In this document: piece after piece, positions 3,137 to 62,738 of the stretch
Layout: each line of letters starts with the position of its first letter
Numbering within the stretch: the first letter of the stretch is position 1
Assembly (NCBI GenBank): GCA_018900835.1
Contig: JAHIFQ010000009.1
Coordinates: 1,624-65,623 of the forward strand
Length of the DNA stretch: 64,000 bases
From: Patescibacteria group bacterium
GTDB taxonomy: Bacteria; Patescibacteriota; Minisyncoccia; Minisyncoccales; PEYH01
Direction of reading: 5' to 3'
Program-made: the position numbers and the translations under genes
The notes under the pieces: generated by a model
What the model saw: only the letters and a program-made list of their open reading frames with translations
The model's database searches: none
Told to the model about the DNA's origin: nothing

Positions 3137-4093
3137 ATGGCCAAAAAATTTTTCCAATTCAATATTTTCGCACAGTGTAAGAGATATCAAATTCCTGCAT
3201 GGCAATGCCCCGAGTTTTTATTTTTTATTATGGGCATAATAATCATCATCTCAAGTATCTCATTTTATGCGATAGGCGAAAGATATGTGTCAGACCCCAG
3301 AATAGTGGCGTTAATTGTAATGATAGTTTCCATGACCCTTCTTGTCATCGCTTTCACGATTACACGCAGTTTTGAGGACTTGGCTGAAGCAAATAGAATG
3401 AAGGCAGAGTTTGTTAATATCGTTTCCCACCAATTGAGAGCTCCATTGACCAATTTAAGGTGGGCAACCCAATTTCTTCTGTCAGAAGATTTTTCCACAG
3501 TGGCTAAAAAACTTTCTACTGGCAAAGAATCAGAATACTTTGATATTATAAAAGAAAATTCTTACAGGATGGAACAATTGATTGATGATTTGCTTACCAT
3601 TACTCGCTTAAAAGATGGTAGAACCAACAGCAAGAGGACAAAATTTTCTTTAGCAGGCATTACCAAGGGCACTATGGAAGAATGCCGGGCAATTGCATCA
3701 GCGTCTAATCTGTCAATAGAATTGAATGAGGATAAAAATGCGCCTTTAGTTTTTTCCAGTTATCCATTGATAAAGATAGTAGTTGATAACCTTTTGGGCA
3801 ATGCTATCAACTACAGCAATGGCGGCGGTAAAATAGCGATTAAAATTAAGTCATTGCCAAAAAAGGTCCAATTTGAGATAACAGATGAAGGCATTGGGAT
3901 TCCTGCAGAGGACCGGAAATATATTTTTGAAAAATTTTTCCGAGCCAAAAATGCTGTTAAGGCCGAGGTCTATGGAACCGGATTAGGGCTTTTTATCGCG
4001 AAATTAATTATTGACCAAATGAAAGGAAGGATTTGGTTTAAATCACAACAAGACAAAGGCACAACCTTTTATTTCACGCTACCAATCAATTAA
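3137..4093 (+). CDS. Membrane sensor histidine kinase
   Basis: Two N-terminal TM segments. HisKA H-box FVNIVSHQLRAPLT. HATPase_c N/G boxes NLLGNAINYS, TDEGIGIP, GTGLGLFIAKLII. Confidence 0.9.
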   Translation: MAKKFFQFNIFAQCKRYQIPAWQCPEFLFFIMGIIIIISSISFYAIGERYVSDPRIVALIVMIVSMTLLVIAFTITRSFEDLAEANRMKAEFVNIVSHQLRAPLTNLRWATQFLLSEDFSTVAKKLSTGKESEYFDIIKENSYRMEQLIDDLLTITRLKDGRTNSKRTKFSLAGITKGTMEECRAIASASNLSIELNEDKNAPLVFSSYPLIKIVVDNLLGNAINYSNGGGKIAIKIKSLPKKVQFEITDEGIGIPAEDRKYIFEKFFRAKNAVKAEVYGTGLGLFIAKLIIDQMKGRIWFKSQQDKGTTFYFTLPIN

Positions 4094-4132
4094 TCACTAA
4101 TCACTAATAACTAATCAATAATAATTAATTAT
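4091..4132 (+). repeat. Heptamer tandem array taatcac/taatcac/taataac/taatcaa/taataat/taattat
   Basis: Read directly. The array starts at the kinase TAA stop and ends 10 nt before the receiver ATG. Confidence 0.8.
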
Positions 4133-14427: not shown

Positions 14428-14455
14428 CCTTGAGGCGGGCCTGTCCGCCTCAAGG
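14428..14455 (+). terminator. GC-rich stem-loop ending pilus operon 1
   Basis: ccttgaggcgg / ccgcctcaagg, an 11-bp perfect stem with a 6-nt loop. No clean U-tract. Confidence 0.5.
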
Positions 14456-20928: not shown

Positions 20929-20963
20929 AATAGTAAATAATCAATAATAAATAATAAATAATG
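20929..20963 (+). repeat. Heptamer array aatagta/aataatc/aataata/aataata/aataatg
   Basis: Read directly. It ends 4 nt before tRNA-Ser(CGA). Confidence 0.65.
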
Positions 20964-20967
20964 ACTT

Positions 20968-21056: not shown

Positions 21057-21083
21057 CATAAATTTTTGCCTTTACAAAAATTT

Positions 21084-21118
21084 GAGTAGTTAGTAATTAG
21101 TAATTAGTAGTTAGGACA
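21084..21118 (+). repeat. Heptamer array gagtagt/tagtaat/tagtaat/tagtagt/taggaca
   Basis: Read directly. gtagttagg (21105-21113 approx) pairs with cctaactac about 40 nt downstream. Confidence 0.65.
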
Positions 21119-26019: not shown

Positions 26020-26021
26020 TA

Positions 26022-26093
26022 TGGGCACGGTTGGACTCGGACCAACAACCTCGGCCTTATAAGAGCCTTGCTCCGCCATTGAGCTACGTGCCC
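26022..26093 (-). tRNA. tRNA-Ile-like with genomically encoded anticodon TAT (UAU)
   Basis: GGGCACG TA GCTC AATGGCG GAGC A AGGCT CTTATAA GGCCG AGGTT GTTGG TCCGAGT CCAAC CGTGCCC A. The T loop has C at position 55. Confidence 0.75.
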
Positions 26094-26096
26094 ACC

Positions 26097-26166: not shown

Positions 26167-28010
26167 TTCTTCTTCCTGCTGATTTTGAGGATTTTTTCAA
26201 TTTCTTCTCTTTCCAGAGTTTCTTTTTCCATCAATTCCTTAGATAATTTTTCCAAAAGGTTCTTTTTTGCTTTTAGGACTTTTATTGCTAAAGCGCTTGC
26301 TTCTTTGATTATTTTTGATACTTCTTCGTCTATTTGTTCAGCTATTTTTTCAGAGTAATTTCTTTCTTCGCCGAAGTCCTTTCCCAAAAACTGAAGTTCG
26401 TTTCTTTCTCCGAAAACAATGGGTCCGAGTTTCTCTGACATGCCATAGTCCTTCACTAATCTCCGCGCCAATTCAGAGGCGATTTTCAGGTCATTGCTTG
26501 CGCCTGTGCTCACCTCCTTGAATTTCATCTTCTCTGTGAAGTATCCTCCGAGCAATGTAGCTATGTCTGCCAAGAAATCAGATTTTGCCTTAATGCTTTT
26601 TTCCTCTATCGGCGATTTAATAGTATATCCTGCCGCCATTCCTCTTGAAACAATAGAAACCTTTCTTACCGGTTCTCCTTTGTCGGTAAATGATGCGACT
26701 ATTGCGTGGCCTGCTTCATGATAGGCAGAAATTTTCTTTTCCCTTGGCGACAAGACATGGCTCTTCCTTTCAGGCCCTAAAAGAACTTTTTCAATTGATT
26801 CTGTCAGTTCTGCTTGGTCTATTTGGTGCTTGTTCCTCCTAGCAGCCAAGATTGCTGCTTCGTTTAAAAGATTTTCCAAATCAGCCCCGGAAAAACCAGG
26901 AGTCCTTTCCGCTATTTCTCTTAAATGGGTGTTTTTCGCCAATGGTTTGCCTCTGGTGTGGATTTTAAGGATTGCCTCTCTGTCTTCTATGCTGGGTAGA
27001 TTTAAGATAACCTGTCTGTCAAATCTGCCTGGTCTTAAAAGTGCAGGGTCCAAAATGTCCGGGCGATTGGTTGCAGCGATTATAATGGTTTTTGAGTCCC
27101 TTTCAAATCCATCCATTTCAACAAGTATCTGATTCAATGTTTGTTCTCTCTCATCATGCCCACCACCCATTCCCATTCCTCTTGTCCTGCCAATAGCGTC
27201 TAATTCATCAATAAAGATAATCGCTTTATTGTGTTTTTTCGCTTCCTGAAATAATGACCTTACTCTTCCGCTTCCTACGCCAACGAATAATTCTATAAAC
27301 TCGGAACCAGCCACAGAAAAAAACGGAACATTGCTCTCGCCTGCGGTTGCTCTTGCCAATAGTGTTTTGCCGCATCCCGGTGGGCCTAATAGCAAAACGC
27401 CTCTTGGAATTTTTGCACCCATATCCAGGAATTTTTTAGGGGTCTTTAAAAATTCAACAATTTCTTTCAATTCTTCTTTTGCTTCTTTTAGTCCAGCCAC
27501 ATCCTCAAAGTTTATCTTTTGTTTTGGATGACCCTCTGCGCCAAAAACACGAGCTCTTGCCTTGGAAAAATTAAATGTTTGCATTGCTCCCATTTTTGCC
27601 TGTTTCGCAAACGACCAAAAGAATAAGCCGAAGATTAATAAAGGAACGGCGAATAACATTATTGAGCCAATTTGTCCCCAGCCCGCCTTGGGCTCCTGAA
27701 CAACCATATTGACCTTTTCCAATTTTTCTTTTTCAACACCGTAATTAGCCAGAGATTCTGAAAGAGCTAATTCAGTTTCTTTTCTGCTTTGCCCCTGACT
27801 GTTGTCGTTATATGTGACGAGAATATCATTTCCAACAACCACAATTTCTTTAACTTTTTCTTGAGCTATTTCTTGGCTAAGTTGGCTTATGGAAATTTCT
27901 TTTTCAACATCAGGGGTTGGAGAAAGAATGGCAAAAACCACTGATATGCCTAAAAAAATCAGTACAATAACAAAAAAGTTCTTCGCTAAGTTTTGCGTTG
28001 CTTTTTTCAT
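26157..28010 (-). CDS. ftsH: ATP-dependent zinc metalloprotease FtsH
   Basis: Two TMs, AAA+ Walker [12 protein letters not shown], Walker [13 protein letters not shown], zinc site HEAGHAIV. Confidence 0.95.
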
Positions 28011-43500: not shown

Positions 43501-43563
43501 TTAATCAATAATGATTAATCATTTATCGCTAATCACTTATCATTGGTCATTGATGATTAATCA
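43501..43563 (+). repeat. Heptamer array ttaatca/ataatga/ttaatca/tttatcg/ctaatca/cttatca/ttggtca/ttgatga/ttaatca
   Basis: Read directly. It fills the spacer between the prsW-like start and the tsaD stop (which lies inside the last unit). Confidence 0.75.
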
Positions 43564-44771
43564 GCGATGCGGAGATTTGGTTCTGCTTTGATTTTATTCC
43601 AATTTATCGCTTTTTTATTTGGGATTCGCAGATACGCAGACATTGCTATCATCGCCGCGTTATCTGTGCAGTATTTGCCACTTGAAACAATTAGGTTAGC
43701 TTCTGGACTGTATTCTTGAACTTTTTTTTCAAATTGTATTCTTAATTCTTTATTCGCTGCCACGCCTCCGCCGAGCATAATTGTTTTTACTCTATAATCC
43801 CTCGCTGCTTTAAGGGTTTTCTTGATTAACACATCGATAATTGCTTGTTGGGCTTCTTTTGCAATCAGGCGGATATATTCTTTTGATTTTTTTATTTTAC
43901 TGTTTCTTTTTATATAATCATACAATACTGATGTTTTAAGTCCAGAAAAACTAAAATCATAATCCTTGGTATTGAGCATTGGCCTCGGCAGTTTTATTGA
44001 TAATTTATCATTGATCATTGATGATTGCTTGGCTTGTTGGGCAATGACTGGTCCGCCAGGGTAGCCAAGACCAAGGATTCTTGCTATTTTATCAAATGCT
44101 TCGCCAGCAGCATCATCTCTTGTCTCTCCCAATATCTTATATTGCCCAATTTTTTTTACTAAGATAATCTGCGTATGCCCACCGCTTACTATCAAACAAA
44201 TCGCAGGCAATTTAATTTTATTTTCTGTTTTCTGTTTTACGTTTTGCGTTTTGCGCTTTGCGCTTTCGCCAATTGGCGTTAGCCAATTGGCGAGTAGGTG
44301 TCCCTCAATATGATTCACTGGAATTATTGGTACTCCCCACCAATAGGCGAGCGCTTTGGCGAAATTAACCCCAGTCCAAAGACAGGGGTCAAGGCCAGGG
44401 CCTACAGTCACTGCGATATAATCAATCTCCGGCTTCTGATATTTTCCCAAAAACTTCTCTGTTTTATCGTAAAGGAATTTTTCTCTTTCTAATATATTTT
44501 TTAATTTTAGATTTTTAACTGTAATTTTTAACTTTTCATTTTTAACTTTTAACTTAAGCATATTTGTTGCCCTTAAACCTTGTTCTAAAAGCGGGACAAG
44601 ATTTTTTTGGTGTTCCCTCCGCGCAAAAGATGGATACACTCCTCCCCATTTTTTATGAATCTCCTTTTGCGATGAGATAAGATTAGACATTAATTTAAAA
44701 TCTTTGGCAGATGGTTCTGCCAAAGCAATACAAGTATCATCGCAGGATGTTTCTATTGCTAAAATTTTCAT
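43557..44771 (-). CDS. tsaD: tRNA N6-adenosine threonylcarbamoyltransferase TsaD, carrying two low-complexity insertions
   Basis: MKILAIETSCDDT, VTVGPGL, VNHIEGHLLA, IVSGGHTQII, GETRDDAAGEAFDK, GYPGGP motifs. The extra segments LKLKVKNEKLKITVKNLKLKN and ESAKRKTQNVKQKTENK are encoded by heptamer arrays. Confidence 0.92.
   Translation of the reverse strand: MKILAIETSCDDTCIALAEPSAKDFKLMSNLISSQKEIHKKWGGVYPSFARREHQKNLVPLLEQGLRATNMLKLKVKNEKLKITVKNLKLKNILEREKFLYDKTEKFLGKYQKPEIDYIAVTVGPGLDPCLWTGVNFAKALAYWWGVPIIPVNHIEGHLLANWLTPIGESAKRKTQNVKQKTENKIKLPAICLIVSGGHTQIILVKKIGQYKILGETRDDAAGEAFDKIARILGLGYPGGPVIAQQAKQSSMINDKLSIKLPRPMLNTKDYDFSFSGLKTSVLYDYIKRNSKIKKSKEYIRLIAKEAQQAIIDVLIKKTLKAARDYRVKTIMLGGGVAANKELRIQFEKKVQEYSPEANLIVSSGKYCTDNAAMIAMSAYLRIPNKKAINWNKIKAEPNLRIAD
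44221..44270 (+). repeat. Seven-unit heptamer array ttttctg/ttttctg/ttttacg/ttttgcg/ttttgcg/ctttgcg/ctttcgc inside the tsaD CDS
   Basis: Read directly. The antisense strand translates to ESAKRKTQNVKQKTEN within TsaD. Confidence 0.8.
44501..44556 (+). repeat. Eight-unit heptamer array ttaattt/tagattt/ttaactg/taatttt/taacttt/tcatttt/taacttt/taactta inside the tsaD CDS
   Basis: Its reverse complement contains gttaaaaatgaaaagttaaaaat, a 23-nt exact match to intergenic 14601-14623. Confidence 0.8.
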
Positions 44772-44844: not shown

Positions 44845-45005
44845 CAATTTTCAATTTACAATTTTCAATGAAATTACAAATCTTAATTTCCAAACCAAAT
44901 TTTGAAAATTAGTGCTTGGTATTTATTTGGGATTTGAAAATTAAAAATTTGATTCAAAATTCGAGTTTCATTCAAAATTCAAAATTAGAAATTAAAAATT
45001 AATTC
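44845..45005 (+). repeat. 161-nt spacer readable as 23 consecutive heptamers in one register (caatttt/caattta/caatttt/caatgaa ... ttcaaaa/ttcaaaa/ttagaaa/ttaaaaa/ttaattc)
   Basis: Read directly. The middle units are degenerate. It ends 1 nt before tRNA-Glu. Confidence 0.6.
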
Positions 45006-46678: not shown

Positions 46679-46687
46679 AACAACAAT
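46653..46687 (-). repeat. Heptamer array (reads tgcaaag/cgtaaaa/caaaaag/cgtaaaa/caacaat on +) covering the last codons and stop of the GT2 gene
   Basis: Read directly. It encodes ...VQSVKQKA*. Confidence 0.7.
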
Positions 46688-46719
46688 TTAAAATTTAAAC
46701 TTTTATTTTTGCACTGTTA

Positions 46720-46754
46720 TTTTGCGCTTTACACTTTACGCTTTACGCTTTATT
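46720..46754 (+). repeat. Heptamer array ttttgcg/ctttaca/ctttacg/ctttacg/ctttatt, inverted relative to 46653-46687
   Basis: Read directly. It abuts the recG stop (46750-46752). The two arrays can pair (aaagcgtaaa / tttacgcttt). Confidence 0.7.
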
Positions 46755-48882: not shown

Positions 48883-48925
48883 ATTATTACGAGGTTATTA
48901 CGAGGCCGGGCCTCGTAGTTCTTTG

Positions 48926-53812: not shown

Positions 53813-54337
53813 ATGAAATACGCTATTATCATTGTCGCTGTGAGCATATTGATTTCCCTGACATTGGGCATTTTCTTAGTTTGGCCTCAATACAGGGGCT
53901 TTAGAGATATACAGAGTCAGTTGAATCAGAAAGAATTGCAGTTGGAAAATCAGAATAAATATATTCAATCACTGAAGGTCGCTAAAAAAGAAATGGATGA
54001 GCGGTCGGATATAGTTTCTAAAATTGAGAGCGCTCTCCCCATTGGTTCTGACGCGCCTTCTTTGCTTGAGTTCCTGCAAAACGCATCTGCCTCATCTGGC
54101 ATTAGTTTGGACAATATTAGCTTGGAAAAGGCCTCTCCTGGCGACGAAAAAGAGAGGGTTAAGAGCCATTTTTTCAGCGCAGAATTGTCTGGTTCTTATT
54201 TTTCATTTAAAAATTTCTTATTTGCCCTTGAGACGAGTTCCCGCTTGATAGAGGTGGAGCAAACAAATTTTTCTGTGCCATTAACAGAAGGGCAATCAGC
54301 ATTGATTAAAATTAGAGCAAGAATCAGTTCGTATTAA
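53813..54337 (+). CDS. PilO-like bitopic protein, set 2
   Basis: N-terminal TM, coiled coil QLNQKELQLENQNKYIQSL, alpha/beta C-terminus. Confidence 0.5.
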   Translation: MKYAIIIVAVSILISLTLGIFLVWPQYRGFRDIQSQLNQKELQLENQNKYIQSLKVAKKEMDERSDIVSKIESALPIGSDAPSLLEFLQNASASSGISLDNISLEKASPGDEKERVKSHFFSAELSGSYFSFKNFLFALETSSRLIEVEQTNFSVPLTEGQSALIKIRARISSY

Positions 54338-54376
54338 TAACTAATAACTGATAACTGATTAATGATTAATGATTAA
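54335..54376 (+). repeat. Heptamer array taataac/taataac/tgataac/tgattaa/tgattaa/tgattaa
   Basis: Read directly. It starts at the TAA stop and ends 3 nt before the next ATG. Confidence 0.85.
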
Positions 54377-54379
54377 TTT

Positions 54380-60580: not shown

Positions 60581-60589
60581 GGCTGAATA

Positions 60590-60613
60590 GGTTGGCAGGT
60601 TGGCAGGTTGGCA
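60590..60613 (+). repeat. Three tandem copies of the octamer ggttggca
   Basis: Read directly. The last copy runs into cataat (-10-like). Confidence 0.75.
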
Positions 60614-60642: not shown

Positions 60643-60671
60643 AATGTTTAGAGGTTCAACCTCTAAACATT
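60643..60671 (+). other. Perfect 12-bp hairpin aatgtttagagg ttcaa cctctaaacatt covering the first ATG of track ORF 60644
   Basis: Read directly. It argues that pilD starts at the next in-frame ATG (60686). Confidence 0.6.
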
Positions 60672-60685
60672 GTAATGATTTATTA

Positions 60686-61531
60686 ATGATTATTTATTAT
60701 TTGTTAATTTTTATATTCGGTCTTATAGTGGGTTCATTTTTGAACTGCGTGATTTATCGGTTGGAGAAAAAGGAGAGTTTTTTACATGGCAGGTCATTTT
60801 GTCCTAATTGCAAGCATTCTTTAGCTTGGTATGACCTGATTCCATTATTGAGTTTTATTCTTCTGCGCCGAAAATGCCGTTATTGCCATAAATCAATCTC
60901 TTGGCAATATCCAATTATAGAAACAGCAACAGGGGCGCTATTTCTGCTAATTTTCAATTTCTCCGCCCAAGGCGGGCAGGCAATTTTCAATGAAATCTCA
61001 ATTTTCAACAGTTCGGCCATGAGCTCACTGCCGAATGGTTTTCAATTTTTAAACTTTGTCTATTATTTATTGATTGCCTGTTTCCTCATTGTTATTTTTG
61101 TTTATGACTTGAAGCATTTCATAATCTTGGACAAGGTCTTGATTCCAGCAATCGCCATATCTTTGATATATAGGTTAGTCGGCGCCTTGTTTTTGAATAA
61201 TCAATTATCAATTATTAATTATCTGCTTTCTGCTTTTGGCGCTGCTGGTTTTTTCCTTTTGATATATTTGATCTCCAAGGGCAAGTGGCTTGGATTTGCA
61301 GATGTTAAATTGGTAATACTTTTGGCAATGATTTTGGGCTGGCCTAAAATAGCCCTGTCTTTGTTTTTAAGTTTTTTCATCGGTGCTATAATAGGTATAG
61401 GACTGATAGTTTTCTCCGGGAAAAAGCTTAAAAGCGAAGTTCCGTTTGCCCCATTTTTAATAACCGGAACATTGATTGCCTTATTTTGGGGTCAGCATCT
61501 CATTGATTGGTATTCCGCTTTGATTTTCTGA
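60686..61531 (+). CDS. pilD: Prepilin peptidase/N-methyltransferase PilD (A24 family) with a repeat-derived insertion
   Basis: GSFLNCVIYRL, CPNC...CRYC zinc motif, YPIIETATGALF, FVYDLKHFIILD and GFADVKL catalytic Asp regions. The segment FNFSAQGGQAIFNEISIFN is encoded by repeat DNA. Confidence 0.88.
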   Translation: MIIYYLLIFIFGLIVGSFLNCVIYRLEKKESFLHGRSFCPNCKHSLAWYDLIPLLSFILLRRKCRYCHKSISWQYPIIETATGALFLLIFNFSAQGGQAIFNEISIFNSSAMSSLPNGFQFLNFVYYLLIACFLIVIFVYDLKHFIILDKVLIPAIAISLIYRLVGALFLNNQLSIINYLLSAFGAAGFFLLIYLISKGKWLGFADVKLVILLAMILGWPKIALSLFLSFFIGAIIGIGLIVFSGKKLKSEVPFAPFLITGTLIALFWGQHLIDWYSALIF

Positions 61532-61605
61532 TAAATGATTAATGATAAATCCGCCCGAGGCGGGCAGGCCCGCCTCGGGAGGGCAAGTGATAAATGATAA
61601 ATAAT
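61529..61605 (+). repeat. Heptamer array tgataaa/tgattaa/tgataaa interrupted by a 38-nt GC-rich hairpin element, then tgataaa/tgataaa/taattat
   Basis: The hairpin is cccgaggcggg cagg cccgcctcggg (61553-61578). The 20-mer tccgcccgaggcgggcaggc matches pilD CDS 60962-60981 at 19 of 20 positions. Confidence 0.8.
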
Positions 61606-62145
61606 TATTGTTCAACAAAGAGTAAGGAGACAGGCATGACCTTGGTTGAGGCCTTGATTACCGTTGCGATAGTAGGAATTTTATTGGCAACAAGCTTTTT
61701 GGCTTATCGGCCAAGAGGGCAGGAGCTTGCCCTGCAGAGGTCTGCTTTCAAGATTGCATCTGATATTGAGATTGTTAGAGAAATGGCAATGTCAGCGCGG
61801 AAAAATGTTGGCGGAGAAATTCCTATTGGCGGATACGGTATTTATTTTGACATTGCAAATCCATCGTCTTATATTCTATTCGCTGATTCAGACGCAAGCA
61901 AGAATAGAAAATCAGACGGTTCCGAAGATATTAAAACATTAGACATAGAAGACGGAATAGTGTTAAGTATTTTGTCGCCCTCTAATCCAGTAAACATCAC
62001 ATTTGTTTCTCCTTCCCCTGATGTTTTTTTACAAGGAGGCGCCACAGTGGGACAAATAGATATAACCGTAGCAATACAAGCGGATATTTCTAAGACAAAA
62101 ATTATCTCTATAAACAAGGCGGGATTGATTTCCACTGACCAATGA
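61594..62145 (+). CDS. Minor pilin, GspH/FimT-like
   Basis: Leader MINNYCSTKSKETG then MTLVEALITVAIVGILLA (Glu at +5). 183 aa. Confidence 0.7.
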   Translation: MINNYCSTKSKETGMTLVEALITVAIVGILLATSFLAYRPRGQELALQRSAFKIASDIEIVREMAMSARKNVGGEIPIGGYGIYFDIANPSSYILFADSDASKNRKSDGSEDIKTLDIEDGIVLSILSPSNPVNITFVSPSPDVFLQGGATVGQIDITVAIQADISKTKIISINKAGLISTDQ

Positions 62146-62219
62146 TCACTAATTAATGATTGCTGATTACTGATTAATAATCACTGATAAATGATTAATA
62201 ATAAATGATTAATAATAAC
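62143..62219 (+). repeat. Eleven-unit heptamer array tgatcac/taattaa/tgattgc/tgattac/tgattaa/taatcac/tgataaa/tgattaa/taataaa/tgattaa/taataac
   Basis: Read directly. It begins at the TGA stop and contains the next gene's ATG and its MINNN codons. Confidence 0.85.
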
Positions 62220-62738
62220 GGATTTACATTGATAGAAATGCTTATCACCGTCTCTGTGGTGAGCGTTGGCATTGTTGGCGTTTTTATGTCGGTCCAACAA
62301 GGGATAATTGCAATTGATTACGCTAACTCCCGATTTACCGCAGCCCTACTTGCTCAAGAGGGAGTAGAAATTATTAAAAGCATTAGAGACACGAATCTTT
62401 TGGAATATAATTATGTTTCCACTGGCACTGCTTGGAACGAGGGAATTAGAACAGGAGATATTGAAGCACAGTATACAGACCCTCAATTAACAGAACCCGC
62501 CATGACACAACCAATATGTAGTCCAAGTTGTGACCCTGATGATATCAGGTTCCTTAAAAAATCCATTACAGGATTTTACAATTACGATACAGGGGATGAT
62601 AGCAGATTTAAAAGATTGATTCATATAGAATCACCGAATGCTGACCAAATGGATGCGACTATTACTGTTTTTTGGAACAAGAGGGGCGGAGGGTATTATA
62701 GTATTTCTCTGCTTCAGCATTTATATAATTGGTGGTAG
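62205..62738 (+). CDS. Minor pilin, PilV-like
   Basis: MINNNGFTLIEMLITVSVVSVGIVGVFMSVQQG. Confidence 0.7.
   Translation: MINNNGFTLIEMLITVSVVSVGIVGVFMSVQQGIIAIDYANSRFTAALLAQEGVEIIKSIRDTNLLEYNYVSTGTAWNEGIRTGDIEAQYTDPQLTEPAMTQPICSPSCDPDDIRFLKKSITGFYNYDTGDDSRFKRLIHIESPNADQMDATITVFWNKRGGGYYSISLLQHLYNWW

What the first reader, a model, noticed from the sequence alone, without database searches (positions are those of the whole stretch)
60949..61587. GC-rich hairpin element plus array sequence inserted in frame in pilD, with a sister copy in the downstream spacer
Inside pilD, aattttcaat occurs at 60949 and 60982, 33 nt (11 codons) apart, with a third partial copy at 61000. Between the first two lies tccgcccaaggcgggcaggc (60962-60981). 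The same 20-mer, matching at 19 of 20 positions (tccgcccgaggcgggcaggc), starts the 38-nt hairpin element that splits the heptamer array after pilD (61550-61587). The 15-mer aattttcaatgaaat (60982-60996) is also found in the intergenic array at 44860-44874. The resulting FNFSAQGGQAIFNEISIFN segment sits in a loop between TM helices of PilD. A related stem (gaggcgggc...gcccgcctc style) forms the hairpin at 14428-14455. This suggests a small GC-rich palindromic element that targets the AT-rich arrays and occasionally lands, with a flanking duplication, in genes.
Basis: partly seen in the sequence, partly recalled or inferred. Interest (0 to 1): 0.58.

Follow-up and report, generated by a model that had tools for sequence, protein, structure and literature searches.

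The report
Tiny hairpin repeat inside pilD loop
A 19-20 base GC-rich hairpin repeat sits in frame inside a run of 7-base repeats that encodes a loop of the pilus-processing enzyme PilD in a groundwater Patescibacteria genome, with a two-unit copy just after the gene, which suggests that very small repeat units can enter essential genes in these bacteria.

Summary
TCCGCCCAAGGCGGGCAGGC (60962-60981, inside pilD) and TCCGCCCGAGGCGGGCAGGC (61550-61569) are the only two copies in the window, against 0 expected.

The AATTTTC heptamer array was not inserted. It is an old, in-frame part of a hypervariable PilD loop shared by many Patescibacteria orthologs. The "flanking duplication" is array periodicity.

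What was added is a 19-nt mini-hairpin unit (TCCGCC-NNN-GGCGGG-CAGG). Removing it restores a perfect or near-perfect array. The spacer element is two such units in tandem (38 nt), sitting between complete TGATAAA units.

- Orthologs 66-76% identical lack the unit.
- A PilD only 53% identical, from another groundwater study, carries the same sequence at the same spot (42/43 nt).
- Six other PilDs carry a 33-nt double-hairpin version whose stems keep pairing through compensatory changes while the encoded peptide changes.
- A covariance model built only from those six finds the window's spacer copy first and the pilD copy second.
- Similar peptides (SARGGQA and the like) occur patchily in MurD.

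I read this as a small hairpin repeat that spreads into heptamer arrays, close to cyanobacterial small dispersed repeats and to in-frame Rickettsia palindromic elements. The copying mechanism is unknown. Copy number is low: 2 in 64 kb.

The parts
60686..61531 (+). pilD (prepilin peptidase / N-methyltransferase). The likely start is the ATG at 60686 (MIIYY...). The longest ORF starts at 60644, inside an upstream hairpin.
   Evidence: Pfam A24_N_bact 1.3e-33 and Peptidase_A24 2.1e-15. 100% identical to NCBI MBU3964475.1 'prepilin peptidase [Patescibacteria group bacterium]'. Orthologs start at MIIYY.
60949..61055 (+). Loop-1 heptamer array (unit AATTTTC), read in frame as F-N-F-Q-F-S-I repeats. 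It is ancestral to the PilD clade and is interrupted here by two foreign GC-rich blocks.
   Evidence: Codon-level comparison with L002 (pure array), L001 and L005. Loop census of 120 orthologs. pLDDT is below 50 for residues 96-112.
60962..60980 (+). One 19-nt mini-hairpin unit, TCCGCC-CAA-GGCGGG-CAGG. It is translated as S-A-Q-G-G-Q-A.
   Evidence: Removing the 19 nt leaves aattttc aatttcc aattttc, and a perfect array in L041. Absent from orthologs P0002-P0011. Second-best window hit of model R1, which was built from other genomes only (16 bits, E about 0.09).
61009..61038 (+). Unrelated 30-nt palindrome, cagttcggccatgagctcactgccgaatgg, inserted inside one heptamer (a|ttttca). It encodes (N)SSAMSSLPNG and is shared with P0002 and P0007 but not P0003.
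   Evidence: Inverted repeat I3. Single copy in the window. Presence and absence among L001, L002 and L005. RNA fold -12 kcal/mol, z = -2.1.
61196..61223 (+). Loop-2 heptamer array (unit AATTATC, peptide NNQLSIINY). It is empty here. In the orthologs L005, L007 and P0014 it carries a 36-54-nt hairpin of another family.
   Evidence: TRF. Codon comparison. Family copies in L007 intergenic DNA.
61529..61549 (+). Left part of the spacer heptamer array, tgataaa tgattaa tgataaa. Its first TGA is the pilD stop codon.
61550..61587 (+). Spacer element of two tandem 19-nt units (61550-61568 TCCGCCCGAGGCGGGCAGG; 61569-61587 CCCGCCTCGGGAGGGCAAG; 13/19 alike). It folds into an 11-bp hairpin.
   Evidence: Top window hit of model R1 (20.2 bits, E about 0.011, full length with a 4-nt insert). 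No T-run follows on the + strand. The spacers of L001, L002, L005 and L007 have no such block.
61588..61604 (+). Right part of the same TGATAAA array, in register with the left part.
61636..62145 (+). Next gene, a pilin-like protein with an N-terminal methylation motif (RBS aaggag at 61624-61629).
   Evidence: Pfam N_methyl. Sequence.
14428..14455 (+). Possibly related GC-rich hairpin, ccttGAGGCGGGCctgtCCGCCTCaagg, after an ORF and before tRNA-Arg. Not in an array.
   Evidence: -24.1 kcal/mol, z = -3.3. It shares only a 9-mer with the element and is not found by model R1.

Best explanation
**What is shown**
- pilD of this Patescibacteria lineage carries two runs of 7-base repeats in frame. Each encodes the turn between a pair of membrane helices.
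- The first run has acquired one 19-nt GC-rich mini-hairpin unit (6-bp stem TCCGCC/GGCGGG, 3-nt loop, tail CAGG), translated as SAQGGQA.
- The same unit, doubled in tandem, sits in the TGATAAA repeat run right after the gene.
- Both belong to a family of one- and two-unit hairpin elements found at the same pilD site in scattered Patescibacteria.
- The hairpin is kept through compensatory changes while the encoded peptide drifts, so the constraint acts on the nucleic acid, not the protein.

**What is inferred**
- The unit is a very small non-autonomous repeat. It is copied from one place to another by host replication or repair (templated insertion or gene conversion at slippage-prone arrays) or by an unidentified enzyme.
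- Heptamer arrays are where it is tolerated or preferentially lands.
- Because 19 is not a multiple of 3, only events combined with a gain or loss of heptamers survive in a gene (here net +12 nt), and only in loops that tolerate extra residues.
- I infer these loops are extracytoplasmic from the published PilD topology, with both catalytic Asp residues on the cytoplasmic face.
- The spacer copy probably has no role beyond forming a stable RNA or DNA hairpin.
For: 1. The two copies match 19/20 and are the only matches in 64 kb, against 0 expected. A looser 18-nt pattern gives 5 hits against 0.28 expected. Four of those are the pilD copy, the two units of the spacer dimer and a reverse-strand hit on the spacer palindrome.
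2. Removing the 19 nt restores the heptamer array: perfectly in L041, with 1 mismatch here. The spacer block sits between complete units in register.
3. Orthologs 66-76% identical (P0002-P0011) lack the unit. L002 has a pure array at the site, and the spacers of L001, L002, L005 and L007 lack the hairpin.
4. The pilD of L041 is 53% identical in protein and 64.8% in DNA, and comes from a Hainich groundwater assembly. It has the same unit and flanks, 42/43 nt. That is the strongest outlier among all 43-nt windows of the gene alignment, which typically score 25-28.
5. Six other PilDs (L059, L060, L062, L064, L065, L066) carry a 33-nt two-hairpin version at the same codon. 97% of cells are paired, 4 pairs change on both sides, 0 of 500 shuffles reach the observed covariation score or percentage paired (5 of 500 reach the count of pairs changed on both sides), and slid controls give 19-56% paired. 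The peptide varies from SAQGGPASGGQ to SPFEGSPVGRQ.
6. Model R1, trained only on those six, ranks the window spacer first and the pilD unit second.
7. Carriers are scattered on a loop-masked PilD tree, each next to non-carriers.
8. The exact 20-mer lies in frame in the murD of L011 (SARGGQA). Most MurD orthologs read EDF-RNR-DF there, while scattered ones have SAKGGQA, SGRGGNA, SSEGGSASGGHG or SARGGSALSG.
9. As a parallel case, the CCCGCCTGCAACGCT...GCAATGCGGGCAGG family has three intergenic copies plus one in-frame copy in the loop-2 array of pilD in L007, and one in L005.
10. Period-7 arrays are enriched, 13 against 0.5 expected.
Against: - Copy number is very low. R1 finds no further copy in the window or in about 115 kb of related loci outside pilD. 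A successful mobile element would be expected to be commoner.
- I could not search the rest of the source genome. It is in neither scanned collection, judging (no locus with two matches; no match to the window).
- No transposase, RAYT or other candidate enzyme was looked for systematically.
- Exact 20-mer hits in other low-GC genomes (L017, L030, L031, L022) have unrelated flanks. They could be convergence among the many GC-rich hairpins in the 596 Gb scanned.
- L011 has 49% GC, where about 0.5 chance hits are expected by my estimate.
- Apart from L011, the MurD evidence rests on peptides only. No DNA was retrieved.
- The patchy distribution is equally explained by one old insertion followed by repeated loss through slippage between flanking heptamers.
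- The NJ tree rests on short sequences with no support values.
Confidence: 0.55

Rival explanations
1. An old, functional structure rather than a mobile element. A double hairpin was fixed once in the loop-1 region of pilD in an ancestor of a broad Patescibacteria clade. It is kept by selection on the mRNA or DNA fold, for example as a translation pause while the helix pair inserts into the membrane, or as an mRNA processing or stability signal. It has been lost many times by slippage between the flanking heptamers. The window lineage regained a short form by recombination with a foreign pilD allele taken up as DNA.
For: Compensatory changes keep both stems while loops and the encoded peptide vary. 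All pilD copies sit at exactly the same codon (after AAT TTY) and in the same orientation. Long forms were found only in pilD among the loci held. Flanking direct repeats make precise loss easy. These organisms carry a type IV pilus and uptake-type gene cluster.
Against: It does not explain the two-unit copy in the spacer after the gene, nor the SA(R/K)GGQA-type inserts in MurD. The window and L041 share the identical short form although L041 groups with a long-form carrier (P0107) on the tree. Identity extends only over array units, so a recombination patch cannot be demonstrated. Most orthologs do without the hairpin, which argues against an important function.
Confidence: 0.25
2. A purely local event. 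The spacer hairpin is an ordinary end-of-gene hairpin that acts as a terminator or RNA stabiliser. Its first 20 nt were copied 590 nt upstream into the slippage-prone pilD array by a replication template switch, or the reverse. No repeat family is involved.
For: The two copies lie 590 nt apart on the same strand and match 19/20. No other copy exists in 64 kb. GC-rich hairpins stand after other genes in the window (14428, 17202, 60555, 60643).
Against: The same unit and flanks occur in the pilD of L041, which has no spacer at all because the next gene overlaps the stop codon. The spacer element is homologous over its full length to the 33-nt pilD inserts of six other organisms. No T-run follows the hairpin on the coding strand.
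Confidence: 0.08
3. Chance resemblance or assembly artefact in repeat-rich DNA.
For: MAG assemblies can collapse or mis-join short repeats. GC-rich palindromes have low information content.
Against: None of 100 shuffles gives even one match. Two separate assemblies give an identical protein. An independent study's contig has the same junctions. The reading frame stays open through the insert.
Confidence: 0.02

Closest known systems
Small dispersed repeats (SDR) of Nostoc and other cyanobacteria (Elhai et al. 2008, Genome Res 18:1484). Cited as ref. 43 in PMC3116915. The paper itself was not held, so details are from my own knowledge.
   Same: Very small units (SDRs are 21-27 nt, here 19 nt). 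Some are inverted repeats that fold as hairpins. They lie inside tandem heptamer arrays and nested in one another. No coding capacity. Mobility is inferred from filled and empty orthologous sites.
   Different: A different phylum and an unrelated sequence, as far as I can tell. SDRs are abundant per genome, whereas only 2 copies were found here in 64 kb. Here the unit is translated inside essential genes. The stems show compensatory change across species.
Rickettsia palindromic elements (RPE; Ogata et al. 2000), as summarised in PMC3184786.
   Same: Palindromic repeats inserted in frame into protein-coding genes and translated as extra peptide segments in tolerant regions. Also found in intergenic DNA.
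   Different: RPEs are about 105-146 bp, which is 3 to 8 times longer. They are not associated with heptamer arrays and are found in Rickettsia only.
REP / REPIN elements with RAYT transposases (PMC3116915; PMC3184786).
   Same: GC-rich hairpins of about 20-35 nt in spacers after genes. They occur as singlets and doublets.
   Different: REPs are extragenic by definition, number hundreds per genome, form inverted doublets and depend on a RAYT gene. Here the doublet is in tandem, copies are few, one is intragenic, and no RAYT was identified (not searched systematically).
Intergenic heptamer direct repeats: TAACTGA repeats of Beggiatoaceae, Cyanobacteria and Bacteroidetes (PMC4679880), and cyanobacterial STRR heptamers (my own knowledge).
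   Same: Arrays of 2 to tens of 7-nt units concentrated in spacers close to gene starts and ends. One window array (54337-54359) even has the unit ATAACTG, which is TAACTGA in another register.
   Different: Many different units here rather than one dominant heptamer. Arrays also run in frame through protein loops (PilD, TsaD). My searches found no description for Patescibacteria.
Intrinsic (rho-independent) terminators.
   Same: A stable GC-rich hairpin directly after a stop codon.
   Different: No U-tract follows on the coding strand. The same sequence is also found inside the coding region.

Membership tests
Prepilin peptidase PilD (MEROPS A24A) | N-terminal A24_N_bact domain with two Cys pairs, plus a Peptidase_A24 domain with two catalytic Asp | tested here: met
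   Pfam hits 1.3e-33 and 2.1e-15. CxxC...CxxC, D141 and D206 are invariant in the alignment.
Small dispersed repeats (SDR-like very small repeat) | Unit of about 20-30 nt with no coding capacity, some forming hairpins | tested here: met
   19-nt unit and 38-nt dimer. Fold data. Anatomy.
Small dispersed repeats (SDR-like very small repeat) | Embedded in tandem heptamer arrays, with excision restoring the array | tested here: met
   Window and L041 pilD arrays, and the spacer TGATAAA array.
Small dispersed repeats (SDR-like very small repeat) | Filled and empty orthologous sites among related genomes | tested here: met
   P0002-P0011 are empty while the window is filled. Carriers are scattered on the tree.
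Small dispersed repeats (SDR-like very small repeat) | Many dispersed copies per genome | tested here: not met
   2 copies in 64 kb by pattern and by covariance model. None outside pilD in about 115 kb of related loci. The whole genome was not available.
Small dispersed repeats (SDR-like very small repeat) | Sequence relationship to the described cyanobacterial SDR1-8 | not testable with these tools
   The paper and its sequences were not held.
Rickettsia palindromic elements (RPE) | Palindromic repeat inserted in frame and translated within conserved genes | tested here: met
   SAQGGQA in PilD. SARGGQA in the MurD of L011, a 5-residue gap against PDB 3lk7 and absent from most orthologs.
Rickettsia palindromic elements (RPE) | Length of about 105-146 bp; Rickettsia lineage | tested here: not met
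   19-38 nt, in Patescibacteria. RPE size from PMC3184786.
REP / REPIN | Extragenic, highly repeated, inverted doublets, linked RAYT gene | tested here: not met
   One copy is intragenic. The doublet is a tandem pair of units 13/19 alike. Copy number is low. A RAYT gene was not searched for.
MITE | Terminal inverted repeats plus a target-site duplication, usually more than 50 bp | tested here: inconclusive
   The stems act as inverted repeats. The apparent 10-nt direct repeat aattttcaat is array periodicity. The size is far below known MITEs.
Intrinsic terminator (spacer copy only) | GC-rich hairpin followed by a U-tract on the transcribed strand | tested here: not met
   The scan lists only a minus-strand match at 61567-61551. 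Nothing on the + strand. The sequence after the stem is agggcaagtgataaa.
Any Rfam RNA family | Match at the gathering threshold | tested here: not met
   Only tRNAs were found in the window and seven other loci.

The most novel reading that the evidence does not exclude
Patescibacteria may harbour a currently active class of ultra-small (19-nt) hairpin units. These would move within and between genomes without any element-encoded function, land in heptamer arrays, and together with array slippage continually rewrite the exposed loops of membrane and cell-wall enzymes such as PilD and MurD. That would be a repeat-driven generator of protein loop diversity in organisms with minimal genomes. The identical 42/43-nt junction in two PilDs that are only 53% identical would then mark recent independent insertions, or exchange across lineages on different continents.
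Probability: 0.2. Interest if true: 0.75.

Novelty: new variant of a known kind. Interest (0 to 1): 0.55.

Why it matters
Very small repeats of about 20 nt are close to the lower size limit of anything proposed to be mobile, and how they are copied is unknown. This case offers clean filled and empty sites. The unit sits in a perfectly periodic array inside a conserved gene, so its borders can be read to the base. There are also related one- and two-unit forms, and covariation across species.

It also shows that heptamer arrays, so far described mainly for cyanobacteria, Beggiatoaceae and some Bacteroidetes, pervade a Patescibacteria genome and run in frame through protein loops. Annotators and structure predictors should expect such low-complexity, nucleic-acid-driven inserts in proteins of this radiation.

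If mobility is confirmed, the system could be used to find the responsible host machinery.

Tried and rejected
1. **FtsH site (27678-27695, minus strand).** It shares 13 nt (GCCCAAGGCGGGC) with the unit, just before TM2. Sixty orthologs show no indel there and encode the same E-x-G-G-x-W motif. It is not an insertion.

2. **Exact 20-mer in public collections.**
   - Genome contigs gave 24 hits and metagenome contigs 27, mostly in genomes of 56-75% GC, which I treat as chance.
   - Low-GC intergenic hits (L017, L030, L031, L022) have unrelated flanks. I do not count them as family members.
   - L041 is fully convincing. L011 is a probable hit: the exact 20-mer lies in frame in murD, but its genome is 49% GC, where about 0.5 chance hits are expected.
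   - Viral contigs gave 2 hits, both in high-GC contigs.

3. **Rfam at gathering threshold.** Only tRNAs.

4. **Target-site duplication.** It cannot be separated from array periodicity.

5. **The 15-mer shared with 44860.** Explained by the shared heptamer unit.

6. **A longer shared element around the intergenic 20-mer hits.** No common flanks.

7. **Census of perfect 6-bp GC mini-hairpins.** Only a handful per locus, with no hidden high-copy family.

8. **The source contig.** I could not retrieve it beyond the window. The source genome seems to be absent from both scanned collections.

9. **Elhai 2008.** Could not be read.
Full report
**Setting.** The window comes from a Patescibacteria (CPR) genome of about 38% GC. 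The finding lies in a type IV pilus cluster: pilC-like T2SSF, two pilins, pilD, then more pilins. pilD is the ORF 60644-61531. Orthologs indicate that the real start is the ATG at 60686.

**Check of the observation.**
- The 20-mer TCCGCCCAAGGCGGGCAGGC (60962-60981) and its 19/20 match at 61550-61569 are the only matches in the window, even at 3 mismatches. None of 100 dinucleotide-preserving shuffles produced a match.
- The downstream block 61550-61587 folds into an 11-bp hairpin (-29.7 kcal/mol, z = -4.7). It lies between complete TGATAAA units that stay in register across it.
- The insert is translated. It lies between the two Pfam domains of PilD, in the only stretch of an AlphaFold model with pLDDT below 50, between two long helices.
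- Two separate assemblies encode the identical protein, so it is not an assembly artefact.
- The shared 15-mer at 44860 and the hairpin at 14428 are real but weak links.

**The array is native to pilD.** In an alignment of 31 orthologs the region between the second and third membrane helices is hypervariable. In most sequences it reads as a translated heptamer array, for example FNFQFPIFNEFSIFNFQFLN.
- At the DNA level, L002 (P0003) has an uninterrupted run of ATTTTCA units in frame.
- A second loop (NNQLSIINY, 61196-61223) is an AATTATC array.
- So the array was not brought in by the hairpin, and the aattttcaat "flanking duplication" is array periodicity.
- Period-7 arrays are strongly enriched in the window, 13 against 0.5 in shuffles, while other periods are near expectation. 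Most are intergenic, but TsaD also carries degenerate arrays in frame.

**Anatomy of the element.**
- Removing TCCGCCCAAGGCGGGCAGG (19 nt) from L041 leaves AATTTTC x3 exactly. Removing it from the window leaves aattttc aatttcc aattttc. The unit is therefore 19 nt: a 6-bp stem, a 3-nt loop and the tail CAGG.
- The spacer block is 38 nt, which is two such units in tandem (13/19 alike). Unit 2 is found on its own by an 18-nt pattern at 2 mismatches. That pattern gives 5 hits against 0.28 expected.
- Relative to L001 and L002 the window has one heptamer fewer plus 19 nt, a net gain of 12 nt (4 codons).
- By inspection the unit has no stop codon in any of the six frames.
- A separate 30-nt palindrome (61009-61038) interrupts another heptamer (a|ttttca). 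It is shared with P0002 and P0007 but not P0003.

**Relatives elsewhere.**
- The closest PilDs (66-76% identity, P0002-P0011) lack the unit, and their post-pilD spacers hold heptamer arrays without a hairpin.
- The metagenome scan found one low-GC contig, L041 (Hainich groundwater). Its PilD is only 53% identical, and its DNA is 64.8% identical over ungapped columns. Yet it carries the same unit at the same place. 42 of 43 nt match, including flanks, which is the extreme outlier among all 43-nt windows of the alignment.
- Six further PilDs (L059, L060, L062, L064, L065, L066) have a 33-nt version at the same codon made of two adjacent 15-nt mini-hairpins plus CAR.
  - Across these six, 97% of cells pair, and four pairs change on both sides. 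L066 has three compensatory pairs in hairpin B.
  - No shuffle of 500 reaches the observed covariation score or percentage paired; 5 of 500 reach the count of pairs changed on both sides. Slid controls give 19-56% pairing.
  - The peptides differ (SAQGGPASGGQ, SAFGGPAVGWQ, SPFEGSPVGRQ), so the constraint is on the nucleic acid.
- A covariance model built from these six alone (R1) ranks the window's spacer element first (20.2 bits, full length with a 4-nt insert) and the pilD unit second (16 bits, with hairpin B deleted). It finds nothing else convincing in the window.
- The spacer copy, the pilD short form and the foreign long forms are therefore one family.

**Distribution.** On a neighbour-joining tree of PilD with the loops masked, carriers are scattered (P0001, L041 with P0107, P0079, P0101, P0042, P0036, P0024, P0086). 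Each sits next to non-carriers with pure arrays. The tree is short and carries no support values. Even so, the window's own clade is clear from the identities and holds no other carrier.

**A second gene.**
- The exact 20-mer lies in frame in the murD of another Patescibacterium (L011)...HRLADF-SARGGQA-SPDLILKAAGVP.
- Against the solved MurD structure 3lk7 this is a 5-residue gap.
- Among 60 orthologs most read EDF-RNR-DF, while scattered ones read SAKGGQA, SGRGGNA, SARGRRG, SSEGGSASGGHG or SARGGSALSG at the same spot. These resemble the short and long PilD peptides.
- I could not fetch their DNA. L011 has 49% GC, so a chance match is not excluded.

**A parallel family.** In L007 a different hairpin, CCCGCCTGCAACGCT...GCAATGCGGGCAGG (with nested inner hairpins), occurs three times in intergenic DNA. 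It occurs once, in the opposite orientation, in frame in the AATTATC array of pilD loop 2. L005 has a shorter copy there. This independently shows that intergenic hairpin repeats enter the pilD arrays of these organisms.

**Explanation.** I conclude that the finding is a very small hairpin repeat living in heptamer arrays, including arrays that are part of pilD.
- Shown: the unit borders, family membership, filled and empty sites, structural covariation, and translation in a disordered loop.
- Inferred: that it spreads by copy-and-paste, with only in-frame outcomes surviving in genes, and that the loops face outward (from published PilD topology).
- The copying mechanism is unknown. Templated insertion at slippage-prone arrays and an unidentified single-strand transposase are both open.
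- The main rival is a single old insertion kept for an RNA or DNA structural role and lost repeatedly by slippage. It explains the covariation and the fixed site. It does not explain the spacer dimer, the MurD inserts, or the identical short form in two distant PilDs.
- A purely local copy event is contradicted by L041 and by model R1.

**Comparison with known systems.**
- It works most like the small dispersed repeats of Nostoc (very small, hairpin-forming, inside heptamer arrays). Reference via PMC3116915; details from my own knowledge.
- It also works like Rickettsia palindromic elements (in-frame insertion; PMC3184786).
- It fails the SDR and REP criterion of high copy number in the sequence available, and the RPE size criterion.
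- The spacer copy lacks the U-tract of an intrinsic terminator.
- Heptamer arrays themselves are known from other phyla (PMC4679880). My literature searches found no description of either feature in Patescibacteria.

**Dead ends.**
- The FtsH site with a 13-nt match is not an insertion.
- Most exact 20-mer hits in public collections are chance matches in GC-rich genomes.
- Rfam finds nothing.
- The source genome beyond the window could not be searched.

**Verdict.** This is a new variant of a known kind, of moderate interest.

Noticed in passing
whole window, e.g. 4089-4124, 20929-20966, 21083-21116, 44845-45002, 46683-46752, 54337-54377, 62141-62224: Tandem arrays with a 7-nt period are strongly enriched (13 arrays of 3 or more units against 0.5 in shuffles). 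They use many different AT-rich units, mostly in spacers next to gene ends and tRNA genes. My literature searches did not find this described for Patescibacteria.
   Followed up: partly
54337-54359: ATAACTG x3.3 is the TAACTGA heptamer reported as an abundant intergenic direct repeat in Beggiatoaceae, Cyanobacteria and some Bacteroidetes (PMC4679880). It is followed directly by TGATTAA x3.
   Followed up: no
43557-44771 (-), arrays at 43996-44027, 44221-44266, 44498-44555: The TsaD/Kae1-like ORF contains degenerate heptamer arrays in frame (e.g. peptide NMLKLKVKNEKLKITVKNLKLKN). In-frame arrays are therefore not special to pilD.
   Followed up: partly
61009-61038: A second, unrelated 30-nt palindrome (cagttcggccatgagctcactgccgaatgg, with core TGAGCTCA) sits in the same pilD array. 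It is single-copy in the window and is shared with only some orthologs (P0002, P0007).
   Followed up: partly
60589-60613; L002 2915-2938: An 8-mer array AGGTTGGC x3 lies upstream of pilD. The equivalent spacer in L002 instead holds a GC-rich hairpin, CGCCTGCCCGTCCCGGGCGGG.
   Followed up: no
48884-48916: TTATTACGAGG occurs twice in tandem and is followed directly by the hairpin ACGAGGC-CGG-GCCTCGT. The left arm of the hairpin is the end of the repeat unit. This lies between a gene end and tRNA-Arg.
   Followed up: no
L011 5401-6801 (-), MurD residues about 154-170: A second in-frame insert made of nested hairpins (GLNRPRKGAVGRTTFQVV; DNA ...CCGCCCCcgtaaaGGGGCGG...AACAACCTttcAGGTTGTT...). Related peptides (GLNRAEGAVGRTT...) occur patchily in MurD orthologs.
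   Followed up: partly
L007 349-707 and 7464-7503; L007 10484-10537; L005 about 3467-3505: The hairpin family CCCGCCTGCAACGCT...GCAATGCGGGCAGG has nested inner hairpins. It has three intergenic copies and one in-frame copy in pilD loop 2 (peptide SPARIATQSVVGGQSVAGG).
   Followed up: yes
L007 16354-16713 and 16903-19705: A bAvd / 23S_rRNA_IVP-type gene followed by an ORF of more than 900 aa, downstream of the pilus cluster. Possibly part of a diversity-generating retroelement.
   Followed up: no
26021-26094 (-): A tRNA-Ile gene with anticodon TAT, which is uncommon in bacteria.
   Followed up: no
27678-27695 (-), FtsH residues 105-111: A 13-nt exact match (GCCCAAGGCGGGC) to the hairpin unit lies inside ftsH just before TM2. 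Orthologs have no indel there and encode E-x-G-G-x-W.
   Followed up: yes
L041 36-290; L062 3024-3278; L065 15296-15532: Small GIY-YIG nuclease-domain ORFs (about 80 aa) lie next to or near the pilus gene clusters in three element-carrying contigs.
   Followed up: no
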